A stretch of 64,000 nt of DNA, taken from NCBI GenBank assembly GCA_973895155.1, contig OZ316892.1, forward strand, positions 20,771,619 to 20,835,618, read 5' to 3'. The notes below the pieces were generated by a model, which had not been told where the DNA came from, ran no database searches, and worked only from the letters and a program-made list of their open reading frames with translations. The translations under genes were made by a program, and so were the position numbers. This stretch comes from Marsupella aquatica (Eukaryota > Plantae > Marchantiophyta). Positions 3,001-59,340 of this stretch are shown here, piece by piece (within the stretch, counting starts at the first letter, position 1; the number at the start of each line of letters is the position of its first letter).

Positions 3001-3961
3001 CTTCTAGAGCAAATGTGAAAAGTACATGCACTATCTAGAATCCAGTCATCACTACCTGGATTTGACACTACGTTGAGAGCATAACCTTGACATCACAATA
3101 TGTCATCATCATTGAGTAAATCTACCTCATGCGAGCTCGATGCCGCATTAGCAGAGGCAGTAGGGACCTTTACTCAACAATCCCTTTTCATGTGGCCAGG
3201 CTTGCCACAATTCCAACATGCAAGAGGCTTCCTCTCTTGCGATTTCCCTATGGATTTAGATCTCCCCCGTGATGTAGATCTAAACCTGTTCTGCCCATTC
3301 GTGCACTGCGCTGCGCTGCTCTTCCCCTGTTCACATTCAGCGCAGTGCCAGAAGAAGATGCTGTCTGTGATAGACCCAGCTTCTTCTGAGCATCATCAGA
3401 CAGTAATGAGCTCACCACCTCATTATACGAAATGGACTTCAAATCTCTGTACAAGAGCACGGTCTGTTTCAAGCTCTGATAAGACGGCGGTAAGGAGCTT
3501 AGCAAAAGCAAGGCCTTATCCTCATCTTCAACTCATTTTCCCAGGTTTGACAGATCCACCGCTAGACTGTCAAATTCATCCAGGTGATCTTGCATCTTGC
3601 TCCCTTCCTTGAGCCTAAGGCTCATCAAGAGAGACTTCTTGTACAGCCGATCTGACGCATCTTCCCGATAGTACTTCTCTCTAAGAGCCTTGAACATTGA
3701 CGCGCAATCCGCATAATCATCCAGTTGCTTGATGATATGCGGCTTGAGATATAGCATCACTGCATTGACAGCAATCACCTGTTCCTGTCTCCACTGTCTC
3801 ACAGAAATCTCCTCCTCTCCATCATACTGCTCTCGCGAAGAGAGCAGATGAGCTAAGCCCATGGCCCGTAGAACACCCTTGACTTGCTCCTCCCACAGCA
3901 AGTAATCAGTACGACCATCGTACTTCTCCACCTCAAACTTTACTCCTCCGAATCTAGCCAT
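1..3961 (-). pseudogene. copia gag-pol polyprotein, disrupted
   Basis: Gag starts MARFGGVKFEVEKYDG (ATG near 3961). Frameshifts occur near 3530 and 3250-3290. The zinc knuckle CWNCGKPGHMKRDC (~3177-3218) is followed by an in-frame TGA. The 910-aa ORF 336-3068 carries PR, GAG-pre-integrase (LWHFRLGH...CEHC), rve (HSDVWGP, LRSDNGG, QQNGVSER) and RT (YKARLVAKGF, LYGLKQSPRQW). Another frameshift near 340 precedes RNase H. Confidence 0.93.
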
Positions 3962-5903
3962 CTCCCTCTTCTTCCCTACTACCGACAGCTCTGGTAGTAA
4001 CACAGCTTCCTCCACTGCACGCCGCACCGGTGATCGTACCGGTGTCACTAGTTCTTCCTCAAACGGTAGTAGCTCCTCCTCAGACTCACCGTCTGACCGT
4101 CGCGATCCTGAAGCTCCACCGACGCCAATTCTTCCAGTATCCTCCGAGTCACTCATATGAAAGTCATGAAAAAACATCTTTTTCGAAACTTCTCATAAAA
4201 CTCAAAACTCAACACCGCCGCATAGCCCACAAAGCTAGGAGTCCAATACTGAAAGCCAAAATCAAAATCAAAATTCGACGGAAAAGTTATTCAAATTTTG
4301 GTCGGGGTGGGTAAAACCTTGGGAAACTCCCCCGTTTTGACCACCTCGGAGAATCACCAAAATACCCAGTACAACCCGTCGTCGGAATCGCGATGTGATC
4401 GGTGCGCCGCGTTGCTAACTCCAGTGGCAACGTCCTCACCGAAAAAGAACCAAAAAAGTTACCGTTCGGCGGACGGAATCTTTGTCGGACGGCCGAAAAA
4501 CAGCTCTCTGTTTTTCGGGAATATTCCCGCACAGTACAGCAGGTCTCACAGGGGGCAGTTTCCCCTGTCCAAGCGGTTAAAACGGAGGGCGGCAGGTCCC
4601 GGTACATGGGACAAACTAATGAGAGGGAAAAAAAAGGCTAAAAAGGGGCACTAAAGGGGGTGCTTAAGCCCCTTAAAGCCTAAAATACCCCGTAAAGGGC
4701 CGAGGGTACGAAGGGCGTATGGCCGGCATCGGGGCGGGACGAGGGTACAGCCGCGTACAAGCGGGGTAGAGCCGCAAAGGGCTGGGCATACGATGACAGG
4801 GCGGTGCCGCGGTAGCGACCGACACAGTATGGCGGAGGGCGTACAAGCACGCAAAAAGCGCCGGCCGGTGTTGCGCAGCTCGTCGCCGCGGCTGAAGGAT
4901 GAGGGGAAAACAAGGTGCGGGGGGGTCGGGCGTACAAGGGGAAACGATGGGGGACCAAGGGCCGGGAGGGTGTATATACACACCAAAAGTGGCCCTAACC
5001 AAAGCCAAGATTTGACTTTATAACAAAAAAGCCGTTTACACACCTTGAACGCCGCTGCTTCTTATGAGTAAAGTGAACGCCGCCGACGGGAAATGTTGCC
5101 AAATTGCACCAGCACAGTCTGCAGCTCCAGCAGAGAATTTTTATTTTTTTTCGCTGTGTCACACTTACTCCGCGTCAAGTGCCAATCCCGGACTCAAAAC
5201 GACCGCTTCGCTGCGATCAAACCGTTGAGCCGTAGCACTTTGCATTTCTTCCACCGAGTCGGACGTCACGAAGAGAAACCCGGTTCAGATGAGAACAAGC
5301 TCCATAGCTTGTGAAAAAACCTGAACGCCTCCGTCACTCGTCACGTCGCACTCGGTAACAACTCGGCAACAAATCAACTACCAAAACGATCAGCTTGCTT
5401 CAACCTTCAACTTGAGCTACAACATGCGACGCCTCCCGCACCGCACAGCTCACACTGTTGAAAACACAAACTCTGGTCTCTCCCCTGAAAAACCGTCGAA
5501 CGCGAATAAAACCGAACGATGCAAACTTCGATTCCTCCGCACCACGGATACCGATCAGCGAGTTCTAACCACCGTTAGAAAGCCCTCTCACTAACCTATC
5601 CGCACAACCACACACATTCAAGTTTCATGTGACGAAACTCTGAATGTACCATCGACAAGTTTGGTGCGTTGGAAAAAACCTGTCACGAAAAAAATCCAGA
5701 TGGATGGAAACGTGAATTCCTCCGCACCACGAACTCTGTTCAGAGATTTCTTTGCACTGTCGGAAAGCCCTTCCCCCGATCTATCCGTTGAGCCCAACAC
5801 CTCCAAGTTCCATGCGACAGAACTCCGTGAAATCCATCGACTCTAACCGCTGGAAAAACCGTCACCAACACGTCACGAAAAAACCTCGTCACCTCCCAGG
5901 CAT

Positions 5904-9650: not shown

Positions 9651-12600
9651 TCACGGAGATTGCTCAATGTCTACCTCTGAGCCAGAGTCTACTTTTTTAT
9701 ATGTGAACCACCTTGCGCACATAAGATAGACTAACACGTTCAAAACACTCAATATACTTAGAAGCCAAAAGAAATAATCTAGATGACCCCTATTTAGGTT
9801 ATCAGGGATCCAACCTAATCTCCCATGACTCGTGGTGATGTTACCAACGATAGTTACCAACAATGAGCTCAGATAGTTCCCGAGAGCAACAGTGGTCAAG
9901 GACAAAGCACTACCTAAGCTGCGCATACTATCTGGTGACTGATCATAGAAAAACTCTAATTGACCTATGAAGAAGAAAACTTCTGCAGCGCCAATAAAAA
10001 AGTACTGGGGAATTTGCCAAAACACACTAAGCGGAACTTGTGCATTGGCATCATTTAATAGCCCATTCTGCTTAGCAGCCTCAAGGCGTTCCATTTCCAC
10101 AATTGCTGCAGCAACCATAGCAAGTATAGAAACAACCAACCCAATACCCATACGTTGCAGGTGAGTAAATCCTCGCACATTGCCACTAAACTGTCTAACG
10201 AATGGAACTAGGAGCCTATCATAGATTGGTACCCATATCAATACAGCAATAGTATCAAAGATTGACATTGTTGCTGCTCCAATTGTGAAATGTGGGCCCA
10301 TCCTTCTGTTCATAACTCCTCCTTGCTCCACAAACAAAGTAGACATCTGTGCATATACCGTAGAAAAGACTATGCTAGTTATCCAGATTGGCAATAGTCT
10401 TACGAGAAGCTTGACTTCTTCCACCTGTGTGACAGTAGCCAATCGCCAAGGGCTTTGACGTGGTAAATCAGAACCTGTGGGAACAGCAGCTTTATCTAAA
10501 CATCTGTACACACAACCAATAAAATAACAAATGGTTAAATCTTACATAATTATTAACCTGTCAATAGCAAAACCAGAATTGGATATTTAGATGATAATAT
10601 TGTCACCGTCTAAACCCTTTGTTTAAGATTTTCAAATTTTACAAATATGATACTACTAAGAAGAATAAAGTTTTACCTCAATCCTTGAGTGTGTCGAAGT
10701 TTTCTGTTTGCATGAGGAACCAATTCTCGAGAATCAATTTCATGTAAGGAAGAACTCTCAGCTGGAACTCTGACTCTGAAATTCCTGATTGCAGCCACAG
10801 TTACTTGGGAAATCCTTGTTAATGGACTTCCACTAGGTTTTTGGTGTCTATATATACTTGTTCCAAAGAAAAAGAAGCAAATGGCAAGTCCCATTGCTAT
10901 GGCAGGTATACCAAAACCCCAACCCCAACTAACATTATTCTGAACATACACCAACACACTAGCAGAAATCAGTGCTCCAACGTTGATGGAAAAGTAAAAC
11001 CAGTTGAAAAACGATGATTTCTTCTTGGCTTCCTTCTCATCATTCTCATCAAACTGATCAGCTCCAAATGAAGAGACACAAGGTTTGATTCCTCCTGTTC
11101 CAAGCGCCACAAGATAAAGAGCTAGGTAGAAGACGCCAATTTGAGCACCCTCCGGCTTTGGACAAAATCCATCTGAAGAACAGGGTGATGGCCTGAGCTG
11201 ATGCAAAGCAGCTGATAGTGCCAACAAAAGCATGCCCTGGAGCCACCATATGCATATTAGTTATTAATCATGTGTGAAACAATATTATGCCAAAAATACA
11301 TGCACTTCCACGACTTCAAATTCCTTGTTCTGGTAAACCTCGGAAACCAACCTTAGTGGCACAAAAAAGGCACCTTGAATGAGAGAGCTCTGTCAACAAG
11401 GGGGAAGAAACCAGCTTTGGTCCTTCGACTGGGGAATGATATGGATACATACTCAAAACACTCATACTCTCTTACCGTGTTCTCTCCAAAGCTACACTAA
11501 TTGGGCCGGTCGGAACTTCTTGAAAGGCAAATGCATAAATTGAATCCGTCCATATATCTACCTTTCCTTCGACTGGAGGTATGCATACTGGACACTCAAT
11601 CATATTCTCTGGGAATGTTCTCTCCAGAGATATGCAAACTTCATGAATTAAATCCGTCCGTCTACCTCTCGTAAAGGACCTCTCAGTTTTGCCTAACACA
11701 CGGCCAGAGCAACCATCGGGCTTGTTTTCAGTCTACTTCTCAAAGCAGGGATCTTAATTACGGACATCAGAGGACTAAAGCAGTAAGACAAGCAATCGCT
11801 TGACCTACCTCCCTTGAGTAAGCGGTTCTGCCCGTCTGCTGGGGTTTCGTGTTTCCTCTCGCTCGTGGAATAAAATGTTTCGAACGGCGGGCGTCTTCGA
11901 TTAAAATGAAAAAGTTCCGGGGAGGAAGAGAGATATCAATTTGGGCAAAACACATGATTGACAATAGGGCTTGTTTTGAAGAGGCTACTTCTTCGGGCGT
12001 TAATGGCGCAGTAAGACGAGAGGACTCAAGAAGTTGCTAAATGCTACAGTTCTTTAATAAACGACCCGCGGAGTTCGGCAACAAAATCTACTTAGAGTTT
12101 TGAAGAGTTTCTTCGTTGAAAAATGGAAAGAACCTTCCGGCCGAGGAGTACTTAAGAGAGCTTTGGGCAAAATACTGGAGCACAACCTGTCTTGAACAGT
12201 CTCCTTCTTCGGGCATGGATCTTAATGACGTAGATGAGGACTCAAGAAGTTTCAATAAAACATTGCCCGGAGTCCAGTAAATTTAATCTACTTAAGAGTT
12301 TTGAAGGGACACGACAAACTTACAACGCAGTAGGTGACGGAAAAGATGGCAATGGTCCAGTATCTGCCCAAGAAAGCATCTGCGACAAAGCCGCCAATGA
12401 GTGGAGTGATGTAACAAGTCCCCGACCAATTATTAACATTTGTGGCAGCCGTTGAGTTGGACTGATGCAGAACGCTGGTCAAGTAGACGACCAAGTTAGT
12501 GCCAATTCCGTAGTATGCGAGCCGTTCACAGCATTCATTCCCTGTAGAAACACGGACACAATGAGCTAGCGGAGAGAGTAATTATGTAAGGACTCGGACA

Positions 12601-25596: not shown

Positions 25597-26969
25597 CTAA
25601 TCAACCCAAAGGCATCCACCAGGCTGTCGATTGAAGTTCAGTGTACGAGCCATGACCCCAGCTTGTAAAATTCTACCAGCAGCTCTGGCAGCCCTGTTAT
25701 GAGCAAAGTCTTGAGGCCCATTGCTGTGTATTCCCGTATTCTCATCCTCAGCAGGGCCAGGGGGCCAATCACACATATCTTGCTCAGTCCACTCATCACA
25801 TTGTCCCAAGACATAGTTGTGCAACAGAGCACATACTCTAATCCAACGGCACATCCAAACATTGTCCTTCTTCTCATTCAGCTGAGTTTGGATCTCTTTT
25901 AATGAAAACCAACGTGATTTAAAAACCCCAATGCAATGTTCATTCACGTACCTAGTCTTGGCAATGCAGGTGTTGAAGTCCTCTTTATCCTTGTGACCAA
26001 AAGTGTTCTTGTATGATGCAACCATATGGGGAGCATTCACATATCCTGAATCCCCAATAACATACTGTCCTTCATCAAAAGCTGAGTTGCCATGTATCTT
26101 ATCCCAAAGAATGCATCTCTTTAGGCAGGTGAGATCGGAACATGAGCCGGGCGATCCTATATAAAAACGCGGTCATAAATCAGGACATTGTTGGGCATGT
26201 TTTGTTGTTACATGGAGATGAGATAATACATATTAGACAAGTGACAAAATATAAAGTAACACTACTCACCAGCATTTACAAAAATAATCTGCCTCCTATG
26301 GTCGCATACAACCTGGGCGTTGATGGAATAGCGGGACTTTCATTTGAAGTAACATTCCCCATGGTTCTTGGGACGCTGTGTCAATGGAATTGTGGTCCCA
26401 TCGATCAATCCTATGCAGCCATCAAAGCCACGCTTGGCAAATTCCTGAGAAATCCCCATTCTCTCCTCTCTGTTTGGCCATGCCACTAAATCACCAATAA
26501 CAGATTCTAGGGCAGTGACACATCTTGTGGTGTAATTCACACATGATCCGACGCTCACACCCCCCAGCAACAGAGTTCATTTCAAACAAACTCCATTCCC
26601 TGTGTGGCCCAACCTGTCTAAGCAAGTTGCTAATTGAAGAGAGAGAGGGGCCTGTTCATGACATGAATTGTTCAAAAATATAGGATGCAATTCAATGAGG
26701 TGAAGCAAGGCAAAGAATGCTTCTTTTTCCATCCTGCAAATTTGCCTAAAGTCGCCAGGAGGCAAAATAGTCCTAAAAAAGGTGTCTGCAAATTCTTTAG
26801 CTCGAGTTGTTCTTGTTCTATTCTCATAATACCTTTGACTGTCCAAACAAGCATACAAGTGAAACCACATTGCCGGATTTGCATGGACATCACTAGGATC
26901 ATCAACAAATCCAGACTCTGAATCAGATGATGACCCACACTCAGAATCACTATCAATATTTGTCGACAT
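25597..26969 (-). pseudogene. PIF/Harbinger DDE transposase (DDE_Tnp_4/HARBI1-like) with two in-frame stops
   Basis: FRQICRMEKEAF, CIGLIDGTTIPL, YSINAQVVCD, intron 26157-26269, GSPGSCSD, VIGDSGY, FNTCIAKTRYVNEHCIGVFKSRW, CALLHN. TGA stops at 26577-26579 and 26340-26342. Confidence 0.92.
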
Positions 26970-28247: not shown

Positions 28248-29957
28248 TTAAGTAATGTACCCTTCACCAATGGTGTCCTTCCATAAGGCCGCCTCTTCAC
28301 CGGACCGCAACTCCAACGGTAAAACCTGCCCGGTGGCCATGGGAATCCCAGGGGTGATAGATCGGGGTGGCATCCCCGGGGTCCCCGTGTTGACCTGAGC
28401 TTCTCGTAAAGATTTACGTACCTCCCTGAGCTTCTTCTCTAAGCTCTTGCTCTTCTCTTGACTCTTCTTGGCTGCATCCAACAGGGGTCCATACTCCCCA
28501 CTGACTTCCTTCACCACCATCTCAATGGCCTTGGAGATCAAATCCGGGGAAAGTGTGGAGCTAGATGTGCAGGGGCTCTTCCGTTTCCCCAGACTCAAGG
28601 CCTCACTCCTCTTAGCCCTTGTCTCAAAAATCACCATTTGACTCCGTAGTGCCCCCACCTGGGCTCTTAACTCCACCACTTCTCCAGAATTCTGCTTCTC
28701 TTTGGCCAATGCCTGTTTCAATACTCCAACCTCTTCCGCTTCCTTGGCCTTGGTGGACAAGGCTCCCTTCAAGTTGGAGATCTCTACGTGAGCTGCTTGG
28801 AGAAGCTTAACCTTCTCATGAATGGCCTCCTCCTTGGCCTTGATCACCTCCTTCATAGACAGGGCACTCTGCTCCAAAGTCTCTACTCTGGCGGTGGCCT
28901 GCTTGAGAGAATCTCTCAATGCGTGGACTAGCTTGAGTCCCTCATGGACTCCCTCCCGGAAATCCCGTAACTCCACCAAGTAGACATCAGGAATGTCGTA
29001 GACCAGGGGCTCCTCCGAATTTCCCACAAGTGATTCAAGCCACTCCAATGTGGAGTCCTCATCCTGGTTTTCTTCCTCTCTATTATCATCCCCAACCGCC
29101 GACGATGATCCCTCCGTTAGTTTCCCCAAGATGGTAGTGGCAATACTCCTGATTTCCGTGGTAAGGGATGATCCAGTGTCTTCCTGTCCCGGGGAAACAA
29201 TCCACCCTTCTGCTCTGGCTAGCAAAAATGACCCCATCAAATGTACAGCCCCACCTAGTTTCACACTCCCGGGATCGGCGTCCAATAGCTTCTTCAACCC
29301 GTAGTACCACCATCCGTACACATGGGCTGGATAGTTCTTGATGTCCATAGCTACTACGAAATGCTCTCCATTCACCACCCCAGATTGCACGTTACCAAGG
29401 ACCCGTTGATGAACCTTGGCCAGAAATCCCTTGTGCTCAGCATCCTTGACAGCGGAAAGAGGAATGGAAGTAGTGGAGGTGGGATTAATCACCCAACCGG
29501 CCACCATTGTCAACGTGAGCTCTCCCCTTATGTTCCGAGGTGTGAATGAGAATTGTTGGTTCTCCAGGAACAGAAGCTTAGCTAACTTCACATGGGGCAC
29601 TACCCATTGGAGACATTCAAAGTAGATTCCTTCCGTACTTAACTCCATCCCAGCCTCAATGTTCCAACTCTTGTCCGAAGGGATTCTAATCTCTACTCTC
29701 ATGAAGTCGGTGAGCCCGGTGGCCTGGAACATAGCTTTGCAATCTTCCATCACCTTGGCAGAGGTCTTGGGGTAAATTCGACGGAAAACCTTCCTCATAA
29801 CCGATGCGGGACTTGTTGCGGGTCCAGTGCTCATTGTAGCTTCTCTCTCTTCTCTCTCTCTTGCAATCAATGTCTCAACGTAGTCATGGTAAGCAGCCTT
29901 GTATCTCCGAATGCGTGCCGCACTAAACTCCGGTTGATCCAGCATCCATGCCTCCAA
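28248..29957 (-). CDS. Intronless 569-aa hypothetical protein with acidic linker and long coiled coil; probably a TE accessory ORF
   Basis: Open for 1.7 kb. Globular N-terminal half, acidic DDNREEENQDED linker, heptad-rich C-terminal half. Flanked by GC-rich non-coding DNA and AAACCCT motifs. No catalytic motif recognised. Confidence 0.6.
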   Translation of the reverse strand: MEAWMLDQPEFSAARIRRYKAAYHDYVETLIAREREEREATMSTGPATSPASVMRKVFRRIYPKTSAKVMEDCKAMFQATGLTDFMRVEIRIPSDKSWNIEAGMELSTEGIYFECLQWVVPHVKLAKLLFLENQQFSFTPRNIRGELTLTMVAGWVINPTSTTSIPLSAVKDAEHKGFLAKVHQRVLGNVQSGVVNGEHFVVAMDIKNYPAHVYGWWYYGLKKLLDADPGSVKLGGAVHLMGSFLLARAEGWIVSPGQEDTGSSLTTEIRSIATTILGKLTEGSSSAVGDDNREEENQDEDSTLEWLESLVGNSEEPLVYDIPDVYLVELRDFREGVHEGLKLVHALRDSLKQATARVETLEQSALSMKEVIKAKEEAIHEKVKLLQAAHVEISNLKGALSTKAKEAEEVGVLKQALAKEKQNSGEVVELRAQVGALRSQMVIFETRAKRSEALSLGKRKSPCTSSSTLSPDLISKAIEMVVKEVSGEYGPLLDAAKKSQEKSKSLEKKLREVRKSLREAQVNTGTPGMPPRSITPGIPMATGQVLPLELRSGEEAALWKDTIGEGYIT

Positions 29958-39504: not shown

Positions 39505-42500
39505 TGTTTGATGCTGATTGAATTTAAATTTGACTAGTCTGAGTCTGAGGCTAATATTCTATCTGACATGTAAAGCTAGTCCTAATATTAAGATCTTACT
39601 GTCACTAGTCTGAATGTCGGGAATCAGTATGAGTCATTCACAGTGAGACACCCCCGGATTCTCGATCATTTGGGCTGGCAGGTAACAGCTTGAGACCAAG
39701 AAGATCAACAAAATGTCGAAAGTTGATCCCAACAAGAGGCTTAATAAGACCATCGGCTGGCATGTCCTGTGTGGAAAGATATTGAATAATACCAATTCCT
39801 GACTGAACTTGCTCACGAACAAAATGATACGGAACATCAATGTGTTTGGTCCTGAAGTGATGAGCAGGATTGAACGTAAGTGAAATGGCAGGCTTGTTGT
39901 CACCATAGATGACAACCCTGTGAGAATCTGGAGCATTGTAATGAAGCTCATGAAGTAGTCGGCGAAGCCAGATGGCCTCCTTCGTGGCAATAGAGTAAGC
40001 AATATATTCAGTACTCTCAGTAGACGAAGTGGCAGTAATGGGTTGCTTGCGTGATTTCCATGAAATGGGACCATTCACAAACTTGAAAAGATATCCACTA
40101 GTGGATTTGCAGTCGGGAGTGTCAGCATAAGATGAGTCAGAATAGCCAACAAGACCAAGAGAATGAATTTCAAGTCCATCATAGTTTGATGGTTGAAATC
40201 TGATGCCCAGATGCGTGGTGCCACAAAGATAGATGTACACTCGACGTAGACAACTCTCATGTTCCGGGGATGGATTATGTGCAAACTGGCCAAGCCGACT
40301 ACAACATTCTGATAGATCTGGTCTGGTCCAGACTGCTGCAGACATTATGGACCCAAGCATGGCCTGGTAGAGCTGGCGTTGATCATGTGTGGCGACGTCC
40401 GAGTTTGGAAGAAGTTGATCTCTATCAGCAGCAGGTGATGGAGCTGGGCAAGAATCCTGCAAGTGAAACTTCTATAGAATCTTTAGAATGTAGCGATGCT
40501 GAGTGATGTAGAGAGTCCGCTCCAAACGATTCCTGGTGATTGACATTCCTAGGTACTCCTCAAGGTCACCTCGATCACGGACTTCATATTCACTGGAGAT
40601 TATAGCTTTGATGCGCTGGATTCCACAAAGATCTTTAGAGACAATAATAATATCATCCACCCAAAGGATGAGAAGTTCACCCTCATCATTTTGGAGTACA
40701 CATGGATCCGATGGTAGTGGGAGGAAGCCATGTTGAATGAGATATTTCGTGGTTCATAGTATGATACCAAAGATGATTGGCTTGTTTCAGACCATACAAG
40801 GCTCGCAAAAGTAGCCAGACAAGGAGTTGGCCAAGTGCATCGTAAGTCTCATATCCAGGAGGAGGGCGGATGTAGATTGCTGACGATAGATCCATGAGAC
40901 TATTCAGAAAAGCTGTAACTATGTCAACTGAGTGAGCTTCAAGACCTTTGGCCGCTATTAGTGCCATGATTGTACGAAAGGTTTCTGGCTGGACAACTGT
41001 GGCAAAGGTATCCTGATAGTCAATGCCAGGGCGTTGCTTGTCTCCTCGGGCAACAAGTCGTGCTTTGTAGATCCCATCACGTTTGATATTATACACCCAT
41101 TTTGAAGGTAGTAATCGAGCACCAACTGGAAGTGGTACAAGTCGGGCAACATTGAGCTTGCGAAGTTGGTGGAGCTCCAGCATCTCCGCTTCCTTCCATT
41201 TGGAAGAGTCAGGTCGCTGCATGGCTTCTTTGTGATGACGTGGTGGATCTGTCAACGTGAGTGAGAAGAGAGCCGCCGAGTAGTTGTAGAGAAGCGTTGG
41301 TGGTAGAGAAGTGAGGACCTGATTGATGCCATCATCCAATTGAGAAGGTGGAACTCCTTTGTTGAGACGTGATGATCTTCGGAGTGGAGTGGGAATGACA
41401 GCTGCAATGTCAGCTTGAATTTCTCCTTCAGTGTGATATCCCAAGGGGGGAGGGATCACTGGCGCATTAGCAGGGCAAGCGACTGCATCAACTGATGACG
41501 TCAAATCATCAGTGGAGGTGGTCATCGTGGTGTCATCATGTTGACTGCCAGTACAAATTGTGGTGGATGTTTGCTCAGCATCCACACGGAACAATCAGAG
41601 GGGATAGTCGATAGCTGTGGGACTGGTGCTGAGAAGATAGCCACTACATCATCGGTGCTAGACGTAGCAGTGCGAGACAACGTGTCGCTGCTATTGATGG
41701 CAGAGGTTCGTGGAGTCTCATCAAACTGTACATATGCAGAGTGAACAATCTCATTAGTAGTTGGAAACCAGATTTTGTAGTTGAGACCATCAGCATATCC
41801 AACAAGGAAGCCCTTCCTAGCACGTGCCATAAATTTATCTCCACGAGCACGTTTCTCAGGTGGAATGTGGACATAGGCAGTTGCACCATAGGACTGGAGA
41901 CGAGTAATGTTGGTCTGCTGTGGTCGTCCTATTGCCTGGTGGAGACGTGCTTGAGGTGTGGAGCTCGCTGGATTAACAGCAGTCGGTGATCTATTGGCAA
42001 TGTAGACAGCAGTTGTAATTGCCTCAGGCCAAAGATGTTTTGGAAGGTGAGCATCAATAATCATTGCACAAGCTTTCTGAGTGATGACACCAATAGATCG
42101 TTCAGCAATTCCATTCTGCTCATGATGATAGGGAGCCGAAGGTACATGTTTGCATCCTTGGGATGCCAAGAAGTCAGTAAGTCGTCGACCTCCAAATTCA
42201 GTACCATTGTCAATGTGGAGTTCAGAGATGGTGGAGTGATACTGATTGACAATGGAGAAAAAGAAATGTTGGATGGCAGTGAATGCTTGACTTTTAGTTG
42301 AAAGGCAAACAACCCAACGATAGCGGGAGAAATCGTAAGATAAGGAAGTAATGCTTGTTTCCTATGCCAGACGTAGAGAGTGGTCCACATGTATCAAGAT
42401 GAATAATCTGAAATGGACTAAGAGCTCGTGAGTGAGGAATGCGACAAATGATTTTACTGGACTTGGCAAGAGAGCATGCTTCACATGGCGTAAAAAGAGA

Positions 42501-44077
42501 CGAAGATGATAGCGAGAGCCCTTCTTGTTTGAGTAGTTGTCGAATGCCATCAACATGAAGATGTGCAAGTCGTCTGTGGAGAATGTTGAGATCAAGAATA
42601 GCTGATGGTACCACCACTGCATAATGCTCGGCTAGGGCCGGTATGCGGACATTGAGTAGTTTCAATCCATTTTGCTTAGTGACCACAGCAAACTCAGTGC
42701 TAGTCGGAAGATGAATGAACTGCTGCAATTCACTGCGCCAACTGATGTTGTGTTGTTCCAGAACATCTTCAGAGATGGTGTTGAGGAAGCTCGTTGGTGT
42801 GGATCGAACACTAGCCAGCAACACCACCAGAGCGTTGGATTAGAAGATGAATAGACCCTTTCCCAGGGGAAGTAACCGAGCCATTCCCAGTATTGATTGG
42901 TAGGGGATCATCAATGTAGTCAGCAAAGAGACTTCGGTTGTTGCAGAAATGATGACTAGCACCCGAGTCAACAATCCATAGATTGGCAGAGGACTTGTTC
43001 TGCATATGATTGGTCGCATCATGACCAAATTGAGCATAATAGCTTGAAAAAATGTCACAATCAATCTCCTTGGTGGATGTCGAGGCTACTTGCGCCTGTA
43101 CATGATTGAGATGTTGAGCAGGAGTACTGCTTCGATCTTGTATTCTCTACAAGACTGCAGGATTCGGCTGCCAATGGTCAGGACGTAAATTGACATGCTC
43201 GTAGAAGCAGCGGTCTGCACCATGACTAGGAAGTTGACAAGTGGTGCAGACATCTAGTCTGCCCGGCTTGAGACGCTTGTTCCTAGGAGTCACAGCAGGA
43301 ACTCGATTGGTGAGGACTTGAAGCGCAGCACGTTCACATCTCCTACGGGATTCATCAACCACTTCGTTAATGGGAGCACTGAGAGTGGGAAGATTCTTAG
43401 GATCACGTCTCATCTGGTCACGTTTATTTGCCGTCCAGTGCTCAAAGTGAGTGTCAAGAATGGTGACGAAGTGAAGAACTTGAATCTTTTCTTGAGTGAC
43501 AATCCCGCCAGCAGTGCATTTATCAACAGCAGCACAAAATGTGGCACAAAACTCTTCAATCTCTTCGCCTTCATATTTGCAGTGGACAAAATTAGCCCAG
43601 ATATCCTGCAAATGAATCAATCCGTCAGCCTCATACGTAGCAATTAGCTTTTCCCAGCAATCCTTGGCTAAGGAAATGTCAGCAAGTGTTTGTTGAATGT
43701 GAGGTCTACAGGATGAAAGAATAATATTGCGAGCTTGTGCAGCTCGGGAGTGAAAAACTTCTGAACGCTCAGCAAATTGATAGTCCTTTTCAGTAGGATC
43801 TCTAGTCGGTTGAGTCGCAGTCCCATCGACAAACTTCCAGGCACTGGAGGCTTTGAGTGTGGAAGTACACAGTAGCTTCCATGCGGGAAAATTGAGACTA
43901 CCTTCTAGCATAGGTATGAGATGGTTGTTGTAGCCTACGGAGGTACTCATCGAGAAGTTGGAAAAATATGTCAACAACAAAGCGAGAATACGAGTCAATG
44001 TATCGATGCAAGTAAAGCAAATGTACGTGAGAACACTATGGTAGAGCATGATGAGTAAAATGTTTTCGGCCCATAAC
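39505..44077 (-). mobile_element. Ty1/copia retrotransposon 2, degenerate, with half-tRNA-type PBS; 5' LTR missing
   Basis: Gag (ATG 43950; LEGSLNFPAWK; CTTCQLPSHGADRC), PR (WIVDSGASHHF), IN (LHRRLAH..CEAC; EQNGIAER), RT (YKARLVARG, LYGLKQA, WVDDII), RH (YSDSSYA, RTKHID; ends 39638). A PPT-like GAGAATCCGGGGG precedes a putative LTR TGTCTC...AAACA (39650-39505). Several stops and frameshifts. Confidence 0.9.
44068..44077 (-). promoter_or_regulatory. Putative PBS complementary to the tRNA-iMet anticodon arm (GTTATGGGCC)
   Basis: Plus-strand ggcccataac lies ~120 nt upstream of the gag ATG. It matches the hemivirus-type copia PBS GGTTATGGGCCC with mismatched ends. Confidence 0.6.
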
Positions 44078-45399
44078 ACAGGGCAACTTTTGTGGTTTAC
44101 ACCCAAGTTCTCAAAAAAATGCACTCAAAGGTGTCATTCAGAGGTGTTAAAAAGATTATGCACTTCACAATGTTCTGGCGATCAACTTTACACCTAACTC
44201 TTTCCTGGTTTATCCCCAATGAACTTGAAAAAATGCACCATAAGCCACCGACTGGAGGTCTAGAGATAAATGCACTTGTAGATGGTGTGAAAATTGAATT
44301 TATACTGAAATCAAAGTGCAATTATCACTCGTAGATATTGTGCAATGTAACCAGCTTTTGTCCTCCACATTCAAAGTGCAAATTGCTCGACAGAGATAGA
44401 TCTAGTGCATACTTATCATTGACCACATTCTATGTACTGTGCGTATGTAACAGAAGAATAAAGTAAGGCAAAACAACAGAGATTTTACTTCACTCGATCG
44501 ATCTGTATCAAAGTAGTGATAGGTTGAAATCTAACGAGAGATCTATGTACAAGATATGGAGCAGATTGACCAGCATAGTTCAAGTTTGAAATTCTATCAC
44601 GCTTTCGACAGAATCAAACTGTCATGTGGAATCTGAAAATTCTTATACGCAAATATCGAAGGTTTCGCAAGCAATATAAGCGAAAAGAAATTGGCATAAG
44701 TTTACAAGAAATTGAACCCGAGTCAGGCTGATTGCCACCCGCTTGACGCTATCAATCGAAACCATTGCACTGAAGTAGCAGCAGCCGAAGACTGGTCGCA
44801 GATTGAGCAATGAAGATTTCCGCAGCGATGGGTGACCATGAGCTGCTGCGGCACTCATCGAAGCCAATCAGATTTAAATTCTAAACAAATTAATTCATTT
44901 CTGTTATTGAAAACAATTCAAGACATTCAGTTGAGATCTCTCCAAGCATTCTCTTGCGAGAGTAATTGACATACCTCTCTGTTTTCTTCTTCTGCGAAAT
45001 CTGTTTTGGCAGACAACAGCGTCCCTCCTCCCTCTCGCAGTCGTCTTCGTCTTCACTGATAAACAAGACTTGTCGTAAGTTATGGCGTGCAGAGCAGCAG
45101 TAGTACCCCAACTCATAAGCCCGATCACCTCTGTATAGATTACGAGGTCCATAGTTTGATCCATAGTTATTGTGCTGGTTCTAACACCCTTAGCTCCTCC
45201 CGCTCTCTGCATCCCCGGTGACTCGTTAGATTTTGTGCCCTCGTTTTACCTAGCCTGACTGGTCTCCTGAGTCGATTGAAGGAGCGCATGAGCTGAGTGA
45301 CACAGAAATTTCTAGAGAGGCACGGATGAGGAGAGTGGGATTTTTTTGCCTCCCGCCCAATCTTTCCCATCACATGAAATCAAATTTTGGATTGACAAG

Positions 45400-56874: not shown

Positions 56875-58839
56875 TTAGATGTCAAGAATGTCCCTGTGGC
56901 CCATCGCTCCGTCATCGAAAGTCAGCTCCGCAAGCAAGTCGAAAGCACTTAGTAAGTAGGGCACCTCCACCGGCCACAACGTGACGGTTCCTACGAAATA
57001 ATTTTGCATGGTCCAGACCAATGGTCCGAACTCTGGCTCGTCGTACATCATGGCGCTCAGAACTCTGTAGGCAGCGGCGTCTAACCAGTAGCCAATTCGC
57101 GATGCGCACTTATCACAGCAAGCGTCAGTGCTTGCCCACATGTACCCCCGACGGATACCAGCTGCTAGTCCAGCCCCTCGGCATGCTCTTGTTACGATCT
57201 CCGGGAGGCCCGGCGTTGCATGAATTTCTTCCTCCGTGTTTCTCGTCATGAGTTCCTCAAATGCAGGACCGCATTTTGAGCACAACTCTGGCTTCGTGAC
57301 GCCGGGTGAGTCCAAGAGCTCGTGTGCTCTGGACGGAATCATGTATTTCTGTGTTACACGAGGTACCAGGGCGGAGGCGTCTGAATTCAAAGCTCTGGCC
57401 CACTCTTCACCGATCTCGATATCCAAGTCACAATCTTTCAACACCAGGTCCTTACGTGCCGTCTCCAGGATTTCTTTGGCTTCGCTTGATTTAGACCGGC
57501 TAAGTTGACGAGTGTATTTCACAACACGCTCAAATATCCTATACCGGGTGTTGAAGGGGCTCCACGGTCCAGCGACCATGCATGCAGAGTACCCATACAG
57601 AGGTGGACCTTCGCCTTCCGCAAGGAATGTGTCAAGTATGCTTTTGCCGATTGCATCGTAAAAGCCTATTGAGAACCCGGTGTGCATTCCGGACTTGCCT
57701 ACTCCTGCTGCTTCGGCAAACATGGCAGTCGTTATCCGGTTGGAGCATCCTGCGTCGAACAAGAGGTCGTGACATTGGAGCTGCATCAATCCGGCAACAA
57801 TGCCTGCTCTGCTCCTGTTGACGACCTGCTCACTCTCGAAGGCAAAAGGAACGAGTGCAGCGCTGTCGGAGACCTGAATGGCTGCCCACTCCTCCGGGGA
57901 CGCATCGTCGAGCCCCATATTGTAAGCTCCATTGTTCTTCTCAGTCGCCCATTTGTTCTGAATTGAGCGCACGAAATTCTGGAAGTCATAACTGATCATT
58001 CCAGTCAGGGCTGCGCCCTGAAGCTTTGTTCCTTCTGCAACCGCATGTTTGGCTCCCATCAGGAACCCGTTTTGAAACCCCATCTTGCTCTCCTCTCCAT
58101 GGTCAAGGTCGTAGTCGATGGTGTTCAACAGCTGCAACCTCATAGCGTCTGGCGAGTCCTTTTTCGGGATCACCTTGATCTGGATGGCAATCCAGCCGTA
58201 CGCCACACAGGGACTAAACCCTTTCGAATAGCCCGAATCTTTCCACTCGGGCCGCTTCAGGACCTCAGCATACTCAGCGCTGGACTTCCACGCATGACCC
58301 CCAATCGACTTCGGACCAGTGATGTAGATCGAGTCGTAGGTCACATTCGGCCCAATTTCCATTCTGATATCCTCCATCATGGGCCGGCGCCTGTCACCCT
58401 TCCTGAGGCGAGCATAGACGGCTGCGCCGAGGTTGATGTCGTGGACAATGCGGGGATGCAGTCCCAGATTGGGAGCAGCTCGCACGAAGCAGTTCCAGCC
58501 GGCAAGCCAGCTTCCGGTGATGCACACATCGCGTATCAGCGCTGCGAAACGCACGTTCTGCTCGCGGACCGACAGAGAATTCACATCGAGGCGCTGGCCC
58601 GTGTGCTCCTCGAAAGCATCAGCGATGGTCTGAGGCTTGGCGAACTCGACGTCGGACTCATAAATGGCCTTCGTCACAATGCCGAGCCCTTTCGCATACG
58701 ATCCGATGTCATAGAGCGCGAAGTCTCCAGATTCCAGTCGTCCAGTGGTGGTGTGTTCCTTGGCGACATAGCTCAGCTTGCCCGACCAGTAGCCCACCGG
58801 TCTTCTCGACAGTTGAGTGGTCTCCACAATCGAAGACAT
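56875..58839 (-). CDS. Intronless 654-aa uncharacterised protein; candidate class I terpenoid-synthase-like fold with Cys-rich C-terminal region
   Basis: Uninterrupted ATG-to-stop ORF, GC-richer than its flanks, with a long antisense shadow ORF (coding-type bias) and an upstream TATA. Motifs: D242YDLDHGEE, H357DLLFDAGCSNR, W426SPFNTRYR, C520xxC523, C574CxxC578. Being a real gene is well supported; the function is inference. Confidence 0.85.
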   Translation of the reverse strand: MSSIVETTQLSRRPVGYWSGKLSYVAKEHTTTGRLESGDFALYDIGSYAKGLGIVTKAIYESDVEFAKPQTIADAFEEHTGQRLDVNSLSVREQNVRFAALIRDVCITGSWLAGWNCFVRAAPNLGLHPRIVHDINLGAAVYARLRKGDRRRPMMEDIRMEIGPNVTYDSIYITGPKSIGGHAWKSSAEYAEVLKRPEWKDSGYSKGFSPCVAYGWIAIQIKVIPKKDSPDAMRLQLLNTIDYDLDHGEESKMGFQNGFLMGAKHAVAEGTKLQGAALTGMISYDFQNFVRSIQNKWATEKNNGAYNMGLDDASPEEWAAIQVSDSAALVPFAFESEQVVNRSRAGIVAGLMQLQCHDLLFDAGCSNRITTAMFAEAAGVGKSGMHTGFSIGFYDAIGKSILDTFLAEGEGPPLYGYSACMVAGPWSPFNTRYRIFERVVKYTRQLSRSKSSEAKEILETARKDLVLKDCDLDIEIGEEWARALNSDASALVPRVTQKYMIPSRAHELLDSPGVTKPELCSKCGPAFEELMTRNTEEEIHATPGLPEIVTRACRGAGLAAGIRRGYMWASTDACCDKCASRIGYWLDAAAYRVLSAMMYDEPEFGPLVWTMQNYFVGTVTLWPVEVPYLLSAFDLLAELTFDDGAMGHRDILDI

Positions 58840-59060
58840 TGTGCTGGTGTGTGCTGGTCAGAGAGTCGATTCTCTACTCAGGAATCAGATGAAGCGAATC
58901 GAACAGAACTGAATCAATTTTCAGACCTCGATGTCACGAATGGGAGCTCAATCATGATAAGCTAGTGCTTCACTCCAGTTTCTTCGAGCTCAACAGCATG
59001 TGACTGACTGTTCAATTGACTGAACTGAGCTGAGCTGAATTGAGCTCCGTCTGTCGCCTC

Positions 59061-59068
59061 CTTTATAG
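59061..59068 (-). promoter_or_regulatory. TATA box of the 654-aa gene
   Basis: CTATAAAG on the - strand, ~220 nt upstream of the ATG at 58839. Confidence 0.6.
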
Positions 59069-59169: not shown

Positions 59170-59340
59170 TTCATTTGTGTTATTCGCCTGCAATCCCACA
59201 TCAAAATGAGATAGGTTCATTTGTGTTATTTGCAATCGCACATCAAAATGAGATAGGTTCATTTGTGTTATTTGCAATCGCACATCAAAATGAGATAGGT
59301 TCATTTGTGTTATTTGCAATCGCACATCAAAATGAGATAG
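59170..59340. repeat. 42-bp tandem repeat, 4 copies
   Basis: ttcatttgtgttatttgcaatcgcacatcaaaatgagatagg repeated head to tail with no spacers. Confidence 0.95.

What the first reader, a model, noticed from the sequence alone, without database searches (positions are those of the whole stretch)
56875..58839. Intact intronless 654-aa gene: candidate new, microbially derived terpene-synthase-like enzyme family in a plant
Seen: a long, clean, intron-free, GC-richer ORF in AT-rich decayed DNA, with its own TATA box. It has an Asp-rich segment (D242YDLDHGEE), a motif resembling the NSE/DTE metal triad (H357DLLFDAGCSN), and an exact WxxxxxRY (W426SPFNTRY) ~75 aa downstream, plus CxxC and CCxxC in an extra C-terminal region. 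Established: WxxxxxRY about 80 aa after NSE/DTE is a hallmark of bacterial and fungal class I terpene synthases, and non-seed plants carry horizontally acquired microbial terpene synthase-like (MTPSL) genes. Inference: it is much longer than typical MTPSLs, lacks a canonical DDxxD and the sensor Arg, and matches no plant family I recognise. It may be a divergent isoprenoid-synthase-fold enzyme with a Zn site, acquired from fungi.
Basis: partly seen in the sequence, partly recalled or inferred. Interest (0 to 1): 0.85.

Follow-up and report, generated by a model that had tools for sequence, protein, structure and literature searches.

The report
Fungus-derived terpene synthase family in liverworts
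This intact, intron-free plant gene, whose closest relatives are in a leafy liverwort, was likely taken up from a fungus and belongs to an unnamed fungal protein family that is predicted to fold like a terpene synthase and often sits beside or fused to a P450 gene, so it likely makes an as yet unknown terpene that standard motif searches would miss.

Summary
The ORF is real: 654 aa, minus strand, all quoted motifs at the stated positions. It is a host nuclear gene. It sits at flank-like depth between host repeats, and is intact with 23 synonymous to 9 non-synonymous changes in a second organism label. Its best relatives are 7 Calypogeia fissa (liverwort) paralogues at 78-80% identity, on the same 66.6-Mb contig as the best-identity match of the window's NPF gene (81%). 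All other named relatives are fungi, and the liverwort clade nests among ascomycete sequences, so fungus-to-liverwort transfer is well supported. No Pfam, NCBIfam or PDB sequence hit was found. AlphaFold models match only isoprenoid-synthase folds (VIA Z 8.0-11.1, 50 of 50 rows; Foldseek not significant). The family conserves DxDxD, DxxxD, WxxxxxRY and two CxxC, but not DDxxD or NSE/DTE. Fungal members lie beside P450 genes or are fused to one. Best reading: an unrecognised family of non-canonical class I terpene cyclases, resembling ABA3 and VigB in layout, not a classical MTPSL. Activity, product, pocket geometry and expression are untested, and kinship to VigB could not be checked.

The parts
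56875..58839 (-). Single-exon CDS, 654 aa; member of an unnamed fungal family, predicted non-canonical class I terpene synthase
59062..59067 (-). TATAAA box candidate, 228 nt upstream of the ATG
   Evidence: sequence only, function untested
58273..58752 (-). N-terminal helical domain (aa ~30-189), includes near-invariant GPK177xxGG; fold not searched separately
57520..58272 (-). Central alpha-helical domain (aa ~190-440) matching the class I isoprenoid-synthase fold
58102..58116 (-). D242-Y-D244-L-D246 (DxDxD), likely stand-in for DDxxD; D244 45/45, D246 46/46, D242 38/45 (E 4)
   Evidence: role inferred
57958..57987 (-). D285-x-Q287-xxx-R291-xx-Q294, family-invariant polar helix; R291 a candidate diphosphate-binding Arg
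   Evidence: D285 47/47, Q287 47/47, R291 46/47; role inferred
57865..57900 (-). SPEEWAAIQVSD325, likely helix G1 and kink; Q322 at the inferred sensor-Arg position is not Arg in the common states
   Evidence: alignment not significant
57739..57771 (-). H357-D358-xxx-D362-xxx-S366-N367: DxxxD at the place of the NSE/DTE motif; D358 and D362 invariant, H357 variable
57514..57564 (-). W426xxxxxR432Y433R434-x-x-E437R438-xx-K441Y442, RY pair and basic patch
   Evidence: W 44/44, R 43/43, Y 43/43
57271..57282 (-). C520xxC523, first half of a likely Cys4 Zn site
   Evidence: 23/23, 22/23
57106..57120 (-). C574-C575xxC578, second half of a likely Cys4 Zn site
   Evidence: C575 23/23, C578 23/23
59170..59340 (.). 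42-bp tandem repeat x4 upstream of the promoter region, followed by high-copy host repeats
9651..11233 (-). Context, not part of the system: plant NPF/PTR transporter exons; best identity to C. fissa (81%), on the contig that carries the 7 paralogues

Best explanation
The gene is an intact nuclear plant gene, likely of a leafy liverwort and likely acquired from an ascomycete fungus, and it encodes a protein predicted to be a non-canonical class I terpene cyclase that would use Mg2+ to cleave the diphosphate from a prenyl diphosphate (more likely FPP than GGPP) and cyclise it. Shown: intact ORF, host context, excess of synonymous changes, nesting among fungal sequences, conserved residues, and P450 neighbours and fusions in fungi. 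Predicted: isoprenoid-synthase fold for aa ~190-440. Inferred: D242/D244/D246 and D358/D362 bind Mg2+; R432/Y433 with R291, R438, K441 or K177 hold the diphosphate in place of the missing sensor Arg; C520/C523/C575/C578 bind a structural Zn2+; the N- and C-terminal domains complete or cap the pocket as in ABA3 and VigB. In fungi the linked P450 would oxidise the hydrocarbon; no P450 was seen near the liverwort copy, so host P450s or a volatile end product are implied. A defensive or symbiosis-related role is a guess.
For: Fold: whole model pLDDT 86, pTM 0.89. VIA top 50 of 50 rows are isoprenoid-synthase superfamily for the whole model (Z 8.4-10.4) and for the core alone (Z 8.0-11.1, rmsd 4.0-5.7 A, 203-243 aligned; ranks 1-15 all terpene synthases). 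Foldseek: 37 of 38 listed rows are the same superfamily (CotB2 prob 0.97, TM 0.47). Motif order and spacing fit the class I layout, and the acidic and RY residues are the most conserved columns. WxxxxxRY is in 62 of 64 proteins of 560 aa or more. P450 link: divergent P450 at L001-L003 (one 90% cluster type), a different convergent P450 at L004, and N-terminal P450 fusions in P0160 (Aspergillus insuetus), P0070 (Hymenoscyphus albidus) and P0164/P0090; in P0045 the P450 tail and synthase share one called ORF. Precedent: ABA3 (class I core, RY, Cys4 Zn extension, P450 cluster; PMC11695735) and VigB (589 aa, central core with required N- and C-domains, P450 partner; PMC12703729). Transfer: liverwort clade 100/100, sister to an unnamed clade with the L001 type (99/98), inside a 100/100 clade with Mollisia and Peltigera; ascomycete-only clade rejected (p-AU 1.4e-4). 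Selection: pN/pS 0.12, p 5e-9. C. fissa forms ericoid mycorrhiza with Hyaloscypha hepaticicola (10.1101/2025.04.01.646537), a plausible route.
Against: No Foldseek match reaches E 0.001 (best 0.17). VIA Z stays under the ~13 that the tool asks for with helical bundles, with rmsd 4-5.7 A and 4-11% identity. Profile-profile comparison with 80 bacterial synthases is not significant (probability 0.13%, P 0.44; reversed control P 0.54); against a 10-sequence subset it aligned in a wrong register. Neither DDxxD (6 of 64, anywhere in the protein) nor NSE/DTE (0 of 64) is present. The same fold serves non-cyclases at near-equal Z (DabA 9.9, FlvF 9.9). Two of 6 metagenome loci (L005, L006) show no P450 in the short DNA held. 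In a published structure-guided screen 3 of 6 candidate types showed no activity (PMC11234867). The window protein has F374 where 45 of 46 rows have Y. The tree is unrooted (midpoint), and the nearest sister sequences are mostly unnamed.
Confidence: 0.66

Rival explanations
1. Same fold and metal chemistry, but the allylic cation is captured by a second substrate: a prenyltransferase of the DabA or FlvF kind (N-, O- or C-prenylation of an amino acid, amine or aromatic), later oxidised by the P450.
For: DabA and FlvF score Z 9.9, about 1 below the best cyclases; DabA gave the longest alignment to the whole model (256 residues, 183-577, rmsd 7.8). Extra invariant polar residues (D285, Q287, R291, Q294, K177) and two extra domains could bind a second substrate. 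DxxxD resembles the second Asp-rich motif of prenyltransferases (recalled).
Against: Ranks 1-15 for the core are terpene synthases; chain-elongating prenyltransferases come at ranks 40-49 (Z 8.1-8.8). WxxxxxRY is typical of cyclases (62 of 80 bacterial loci). A synthase-plus-P450 pair is the usual minimal terpene cluster (PMC12703729).
Confidence: 0.17
2. A divergent branch of an already described non-canonical family (VigB/VniA vinigrol cyclases, or classes ID/IE), so a new member rather than a new family.
For: VigB has a similar size (589 aa), a central core at a similar position (D260, R339, N369, Y436 against D242, D325, D358, Y433 here) and a C-terminal helix in the barrel; many VIA alignments here also reach aa 620-650. 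Class ID/IE homologues are reported in fungi and plants.
Against: 0 of 183 family proteins carry DYGT or NDxxDxxx[DE]. VigB keeps an Arg at the kink; this family has D325 (45 of 47). Class ID motifs (D(N/D), ND, RxxKD) do not match. No prokaryotic relative was found by a two-pattern scan.
Confidence: 0.1
3. The helical similarity is convergent or vestigial and the protein does something else, for example a phosphatase, a hydrolase, or a non-catalytic partner of the P450.
For: Fold scores are moderate and no sequence-level link is significant. Atlas feature hits were glycosyl hydrolase fragments at 0.75-0.80, which is chance level.
Against: All 50 listed rows in each of three VIA searches are one superfamily; Asp clusters and RY are invariant and in the expected order; the liverwort copy is kept under selection with no P450 found nearby.
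Confidence: 0.06
4. The segment is fungal contaminant DNA or a chimeric join in a plant assembly.
For: GC3 (0.635) matches the fungal copies (0.62-0.68); no single Logan contig spans the whole 5.4-kb stretch.
Against: One X1 contig covers 55791-59226 without a difference, at depth 6.9 against 4.9-5.9 for unique flanks; the flanking repeats are high-copy in all 4 runs laid; gene and flanks recur in organism B across 3 studies. C. fissa has 7 copies on a 66.6-Mb contig that also holds the NPF match, with equal divergence (80% and 81%).
Confidence: 0.01

Closest known systems
ABA3 family (BcABA3, RuABA3, SkABA3; PDB 8ZAC, 8ZAF; PMC11695735)
   Same: Class I-like helical core, RY pair, C-terminal extension with a Cys4 Zn site (CxxC...CxxC), P450 genes in the fungal cluster, no canonical motifs. 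Lowest rmsd among core matches (4.0 and 4.2 A, Z 10.3 and 9.9).
   Different: ABA3 binds Mg through one Glu and has no ligand set at the NSE site; this family has DxDxD and DxxxD. It is about 200 aa longer, with an N-terminal domain. No sequence match to PDB chains at E up to 10.
VigB / vinigrol diterpene cyclase (PMC12703729)
   Same: About 600 aa, central class I core between N- and C-terminal domains, non-canonical acidic motifs, RY pair, P450 partner, fungal.
   Different: Motifs differ (DYGT, R339-G340, NDIQDYERD; DYGT and the NSE-like motif in 0 of 183); its cluster has a GGPP synthase, and none was seen in the 6 short loci. Direct sequence comparison was not possible.
AsR6/EupE/Lpg1 humulene-synthase family (class IC; PMC8457177, PMC13213483)
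   Same: Fungal, non-canonical class I fold, RY pair, Zn site away from the active site, selinadiene synthase as a top structural match.
   Different: Uses a Lys in place of the third Mg and an N-terminal Cys3His Zn site; single domain. No sequence match.
MTPSL (microbial terpene synthase-like) genes of non-seed plants
   Same: Liverwort host, microbial origin, alpha-type core, WxxxxxRY.
   Different: MTPSLs are mostly about 350-450 aa, alpha-domain only, found by PF03936/PF06330, and mostly keep NSE/DTE (PMC10215318 passages). This gene has none of these and is a separate transfer.
Class IB synthases (BalTS; motifs as quoted in PMC11234867)
   Same: Second motif DY(F,L,W)ID has the same DxxxD spacing as D358-D362.
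   Different: Bacterial; lacks the reported xxED continuation here; no sequence match.
DabA and FlvF (terpene-cyclase-fold transferases)
   Same: Same fold at Z 9.9.
   Different: No sequence match; there is no evidence here for a second substrate.

Membership tests
Canonical class I terpene synthase / MTPSL | All-helical class I (isoprenoid synthase) fold | tested here: met
   Predicted core aa ~190-440: VIA Z up to 11.1, 50 of 50 rows one superfamily; Foldseek not significant. Moderate strength.
Canonical class I terpene synthase / MTPSL | DDxxD/E motif | tested here: not met
   DxDxD instead (58 of 64); DDxx[DE] anywhere in only 6 of 64.
Canonical class I terpene synthase / MTPSL | NSE/DTE motif (N/D)D(L/I/V)x(S/T)xxxE | tested here: not met
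   0 of 64; invariant D358xxxD362 in its place.
Canonical class I terpene synthase / MTPSL | WxxxxxRY / RY pair after the second metal motif | tested here: met
   62 of 64; W426, R432, Y433 invariant where present.
Canonical class I terpene synthase / MTPSL | Sensor Arg of the effector triad | tested here: inconclusive
   The inferred position (Q322) is mostly M/L/Q/T; the register rests on a non-significant alignment. R291 may substitute.
Canonical class I terpene synthase / MTPSL | Match to terpene synthase Pfam models | tested here: not met
   0 families at E up to 10 for the window protein; no terpene synthase family among 21 members at E up to 1.
Canonical class I terpene synthase / MTPSL | Single alpha domain of about 350-450 aa | tested here: not met
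   Full-length members are about 580-680 aa with extra N- and C-terminal domains.
Class I terpene synthase (any subclass) | Mg2+-dependent ionisation of a prenyl diphosphate | not testable with these tools
   Needs an assay.
Class I terpene synthase (any subclass) | Acidic motifs and RY line one cavity | not testable with these tools
   Model coordinates and residue-level structural alignments were not returned.
ABA3 | Single Glu as Mg ligand, no ligand set at the NSE site | tested here: not met
   Two Asp clusters are conserved instead; mapping inferred.
ABA3 | C-terminal Cys4 Zn site | tested here: inconclusive
   Four Cys conserved in 22-23 of 23; Zn binding and homology to the ABA3 site not shown.
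ABA3 | Sequence homology to ABA3 | tested here: not met
   No ABA3 chain among PDB hits at E up to 10 with profiles A1 and A3.
AsR6 (class IC) | Lys replacing the third Mg; N-terminal Cys3His Zn site; sequence homology | tested here: not met
   DxxxD at that position, Cys sites C-terminal, no PDB sequence hit.
VigB/VniA | Motifs DYGT, RG at the kink, NDxxDxxxD | tested here: not met
   DYGT and NDxxDxxx[DE] in 0 of 183 proteins; D325 at the kink in 45 of 47.
VigB/VniA | Remote homology or shared permuted topology | not testable with these tools
   Sequence and model not available; supplement too large to read.
Horizontally transferred fungal gene | Plant sequences nested within donor diversity | tested here: met
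   unrooted tree, nearest sisters mostly unnamed.
Horizontally transferred fungal gene | Physical residence in the host genome | tested here: met
Horizontally transferred fungal gene | Absent from other plant lineages | tested here: inconclusive
   Only C. fissa among named hits; names were looked up for 30 proteins in all, covering a minority of the 122 clusters.

The most novel reading that the evidence does not exclude
An undescribed subclass of class I terpene cyclases (DxDxD + DxxxD + RY + Cys4 Zn, about 600-650 aa), spread across Ascomycota, Agaricales and Basidiobolus, that includes natural P450-cyclase fusion enzymes. It was captured once by leafy liverworts from a symbiotic ascomycete, amplified to 7 copies in Calypogeia, and makes a carbon skeleton not yet assigned to any enzyme: a second fungal source of liverwort terpenoid diversity, independent of MTPSLs.
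Probability: 0.35. Interest if true: 0.82.

Novelty: new variant of a known kind. Interest (0 to 1): 0.63.

Why it matters
Terpene synthases are mined by DDxxD/NSE motifs and Pfam models, and this family matches none of them, so over 100 sequence clusters and their P450 partners are probably invisible to cluster-finding tools. Each earlier non-canonical family (AsR6, ABA3, VigB, classes ID-IF) gave new chemistry. Liverworts are rich in terpenoids, and a second transferred synthase family kept under purifying selection, and amplified in a laboratory model with symbiosis RNA-seq (C. fissa), is directly testable. The tempering facts are that fungus-to-bryophyte transfer is common (1,809 transferred families across 49 streptophytes; PMC12513842 passages) and that non-canonical synthase families are now found regularly.

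Tried and rejected
No whole genome is held for this window, so copy number in the host and other neighbours could not be searched. Pfam, NCBIfam (0 of 23) and PDB sequence searches gave nothing relevant; weak zinc-finger hits at E 0.78 and 3.5 cover the Cys region. A second word-index search with A2 returned the same 20 proteins. Pattern scans found no relative in prokaryote genomes (0 of 46 stretches) or viral contigs (0 of 10); two patterns each, so weak. No RNA holder was listed, which is no evidence on expression. AsR6 was not among listed VIA rows, which does not exclude similarity. hhalign against bacterial synthases was not significant; those 80 loci appear mostly to be geosmin-synthase C-domains (recalled; only 8 have DDxx[DE]), a biased comparator. 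The N- and C-terminal domains were not folded alone, so no claim is made about their folds. 33 ORFs of 75 aa or more in 43-64 kb (of 47 listed) plus 3 ORFs from 25-30 kb were scanned with Pfam: only a copia gag and a DDE transposase, no P450. Small-share runs (air metagenomes, X8) are not used as evidence. Literature: 10 searches showed no paper naming this family; family accessions were not found in the one supplement file held for PMC12513842, whose HGT data tables were not visible. Three look-ups of earlier scan findings returned nothing. No complex was predicted, as no binding is claimed.
Full report
Observation. The window holds one uninterrupted 654-codon ORF at 58839..56875 on the minus strand. 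Flanks are 33-43% GC with tandem and dispersed repeats; a Pfam scan of 36 nearby ORFs found only a copia gag and a DDE transposase.

Host and residence. The best homologue is a Calypogeia fissa protein (80% identity, full length). Its cluster holds 7 paralogues, 95.5-99.6% identical to P0002 and 78-80% to the window protein, all on one 66,576,599-bp contig. The NPF gene 46 kb away in the window has its highest identity (81%) to a C. fissa protein on that same contig, against 70% for a lycophyte and 43-65% for flowering plants (26 hits of 406 aa or more). So the host is likely a leafy liverwort, and the linkage likely predates its split from C. fissa (inference). Ten runs from 5 studies hold the stretch or part of it; five runs under two organism labels in 3 studies hold 35-100% of its words. 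X1, which may be the window's own source, has one contig over 55791-59226 with no difference, depth 6.9 against 4.9-5.9 for unique flanks, bounded by repeats that are high-copy in all 4 runs laid. X4 (organism B) holds the whole CDS in one contig with 32 substitutions and no indel: 23 synonymous, 9 non-synonymous, pN/pS 0.12, p 5e-9; none hits a motif residue non-synonymously. Contamination is rejected and the gene is under purifying selection.

Family. A profile search of 1.84 billion representatives gave 122 clusters at E up to 0.001, 61 at 1e-30. I looked up 30 proteins. Apart from C. fissa, every species name was fungal: Mollisia scopiformis (2), Cudoniella acicularis (2), Oculimacula yallundae, Hymenoscyphus albidus, Peltigera leucophlebia, Aspergillus versicolor, A. 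insuetus, A. carlsbadensis, Stachybotrys elegans, Gymnopus androsaceus, three Mycena species and Basidiobolus ranarum. No Pfam, NCBIfam or PDB sequence family matches.

Origin. A quick mixture-model tree of 47 rows and a careful LG+G4 tree of 23 rows (most fragments and near-copies left out, P450 parts cut off) agree. The liverwort sequences form one clade (100/100), sister to unnamed proteins of 62-66% identity (99/98), inside a 100/100 clade with Mollisia and Peltigera. One of those sisters (the P0005 type) lies head to head with an intron-containing P450 in L001-L003, which marks it as likely fungal. Holding 8 named ascomycete rows together against liverworts and basal fungi is rejected (p-AU 1.4e-4), and also without the A. 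insuetus row (p-AU 1e-135; that group was chosen after seeing the tree). The trees are unrooted. Direction is inferred from the far deeper fungal diversity (29-41% identity to the window for distant members) and the lack of other named plants. The L001 and L002 copies are also intronless with GC3 0.62 and 0.68, so both traits were probably inherited from the donor. C. fissa hosts Hyaloscypha hepaticicola intracellularly (10.1101/2025.04.01.646537, passages), a plausible but unproven route.

Fold. The full model has pLDDT 86 and pTM 0.89. Foldseek found nothing at E up to 0.001, though 37 of 38 listed rows for the core model were isoprenoid-synthase folds (best E 0.17; CotB2 prob 0.97). VIA-align against 48,161 chains listed only that superfamily in its top 50, for the whole model (Z 8.4-10.4, core at about 190-440) and for the core alone (Z 8.0-11.1; Cop4 11.1, rmsd 5.0, 229 aligned; SkABA3 10.3, rmsd 4.0, 224 aligned). 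These scores are below the level the tool asks for with helical bundles; the support comes from the uniformity of the list together with motif order. Profile comparison with 80 bacterial synthases was not significant (P 0.44, reversed control 0.54), although the best alignment put D358 on the NSE Asp and WxxxxxRY on WxxxxxRY; with a 10-sequence subset the register was wrong.

Conserved residues (47 rows): D244 45/45, D246 46/46, D242 38/45, D285 and Q287 47/47, R291 46/47, D325 45/47, D358 and D362 47/47, W426 44/44, R432 and Y433 43/43, R438 42/43, K441 41/42, K177 42/42. Among 64 proteins of 560 aa or more (near-copies included), DxDxD occurs in 58, WxxxxxRY in 62, canonical NSE in 0 and DDxx[DE] anywhere in 6. 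C520, C575 and C578 are invariant and C523 is in 22 of 23. I could not measure whether these residues line one pocket.

Genomic partners in fungi. Four of 6 metagenome loci have a P450 next door, of two different kinds (L001-L003 are near-copies; L004 differs); L005 and L006 show none in under 6 kb. P450-synthase fusions appear in A. insuetus (955 aa), H. albidus (775 aa, partial) and an unnamed Logan cluster, and P0045 runs from the P450 tail into the synthase without a stop. These are gene models; the fused mRNA is not shown.

Mechanism. Most likely Mg2+-assisted loss of diphosphate and cyclisation as in class I synthases, with two Asp clusters as metal ligands, RY plus family-specific basic residues holding PPi, and a structural Zn site (all inferred). 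FPP is favoured slightly because no GGPP synthase was seen in the six short loci and the disordered N-terminus is only about 27 residues, short for a plastid transit peptide (recalled; not tested). A transferase role like DabA or FlvF remains the main rival.

Comparison. It works like ABA3 and VigB in layout, but fails the defining motifs of canonical synthases, MTPSLs, AsR6, ABA3 and VigB. I therefore file it as a new variant of class I synthase, not as a member of those families; remote kinship to VigB is open. Papers seen: PMC8457177 main text (parts 1-2 of 3); PMC13213483 part 1 of 4; PMC11695735 parts 1-3 of 6; PMC12703729 parts 1-4 of 5, supplement unreadable and possibly decisive (its homologue table); PMC11234867 parts 1-2 of 3 plus a six-term supplement search; PMC12513842, PMC10215318 and the C. 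fissa preprint as passages (preprint supplements closed; HGT tables of PMC12513842 not held and could list this family); PMC10563020 a term search with nothing useful; all others as search listings only. The labels WxxxxxRY, helix letters and sensor Arg are recalled, except where those papers state them.

Verdict. Real, selected, likely fungus-derived gene of an unannotated family; terpene cyclase 0.66; new variant of a known kind; interest 0.63.

Noticed in passing
P0160, P0045, P0070, P0164/P0090: Cytochrome P450 fused N-terminally to the synthase-like domain in Aspergillus insuetus, Hymenoscyphus albidus and an unnamed cluster: candidate natural P450-cyclase fusion enzymes.
   Followed up: partly
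L001:632-2558, L003:7307-9233 and L003:2215-2934 (-): Intron-containing P450 divergently paired with the closest fungal-type homologue; an alpha/beta hydrolase gene lies further upstream in L003.
   Followed up: partly
window 57718-57720 (codon 374): F374 in the window protein where 45 of 46 relatives, C. fissa included, have Tyr; may alter activity.
   Followed up: no
window 57337-58171, run X3: Depth over the middle of the gene (128) is about 2-3 times that of other unique pieces (40-72), with alternative short contigs, hinting at extra copies in organism B.
   Followed up: no
window 56951-57880, run X8 (organism C): Short contigs about 83-85% identical to the 3' half of the gene; possibly a more distant liverwort copy, one with two close single-base indels.
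   Followed up: no
window 28248-29945 (-): 565-aa ORF with no Pfam match and a likely coiled-coil C-terminal half, in a GC-richer block; perhaps transposon-borne.
   Followed up: partly
window 336-4177, 39634-44124 (-), 25597-26969 (-): Two Ty1/copia elements in pieces and a PIF/Harbinger-like DDE_Tnp_4 remnant.
   Followed up: partly
window 58045-58965 (+): 306-aa antisense ORF overlapping the gene; no Pfam match, likely a by-product of GC-rich codon use.
   Followed up: partly
P0052, P0102: Family fragments joined in gene models to other domains (ankyrin-like text in P0052, a beta-lactamase-like N-terminus in P0102, by eye); probably mis-merged or decayed genes.
   Followed up: no
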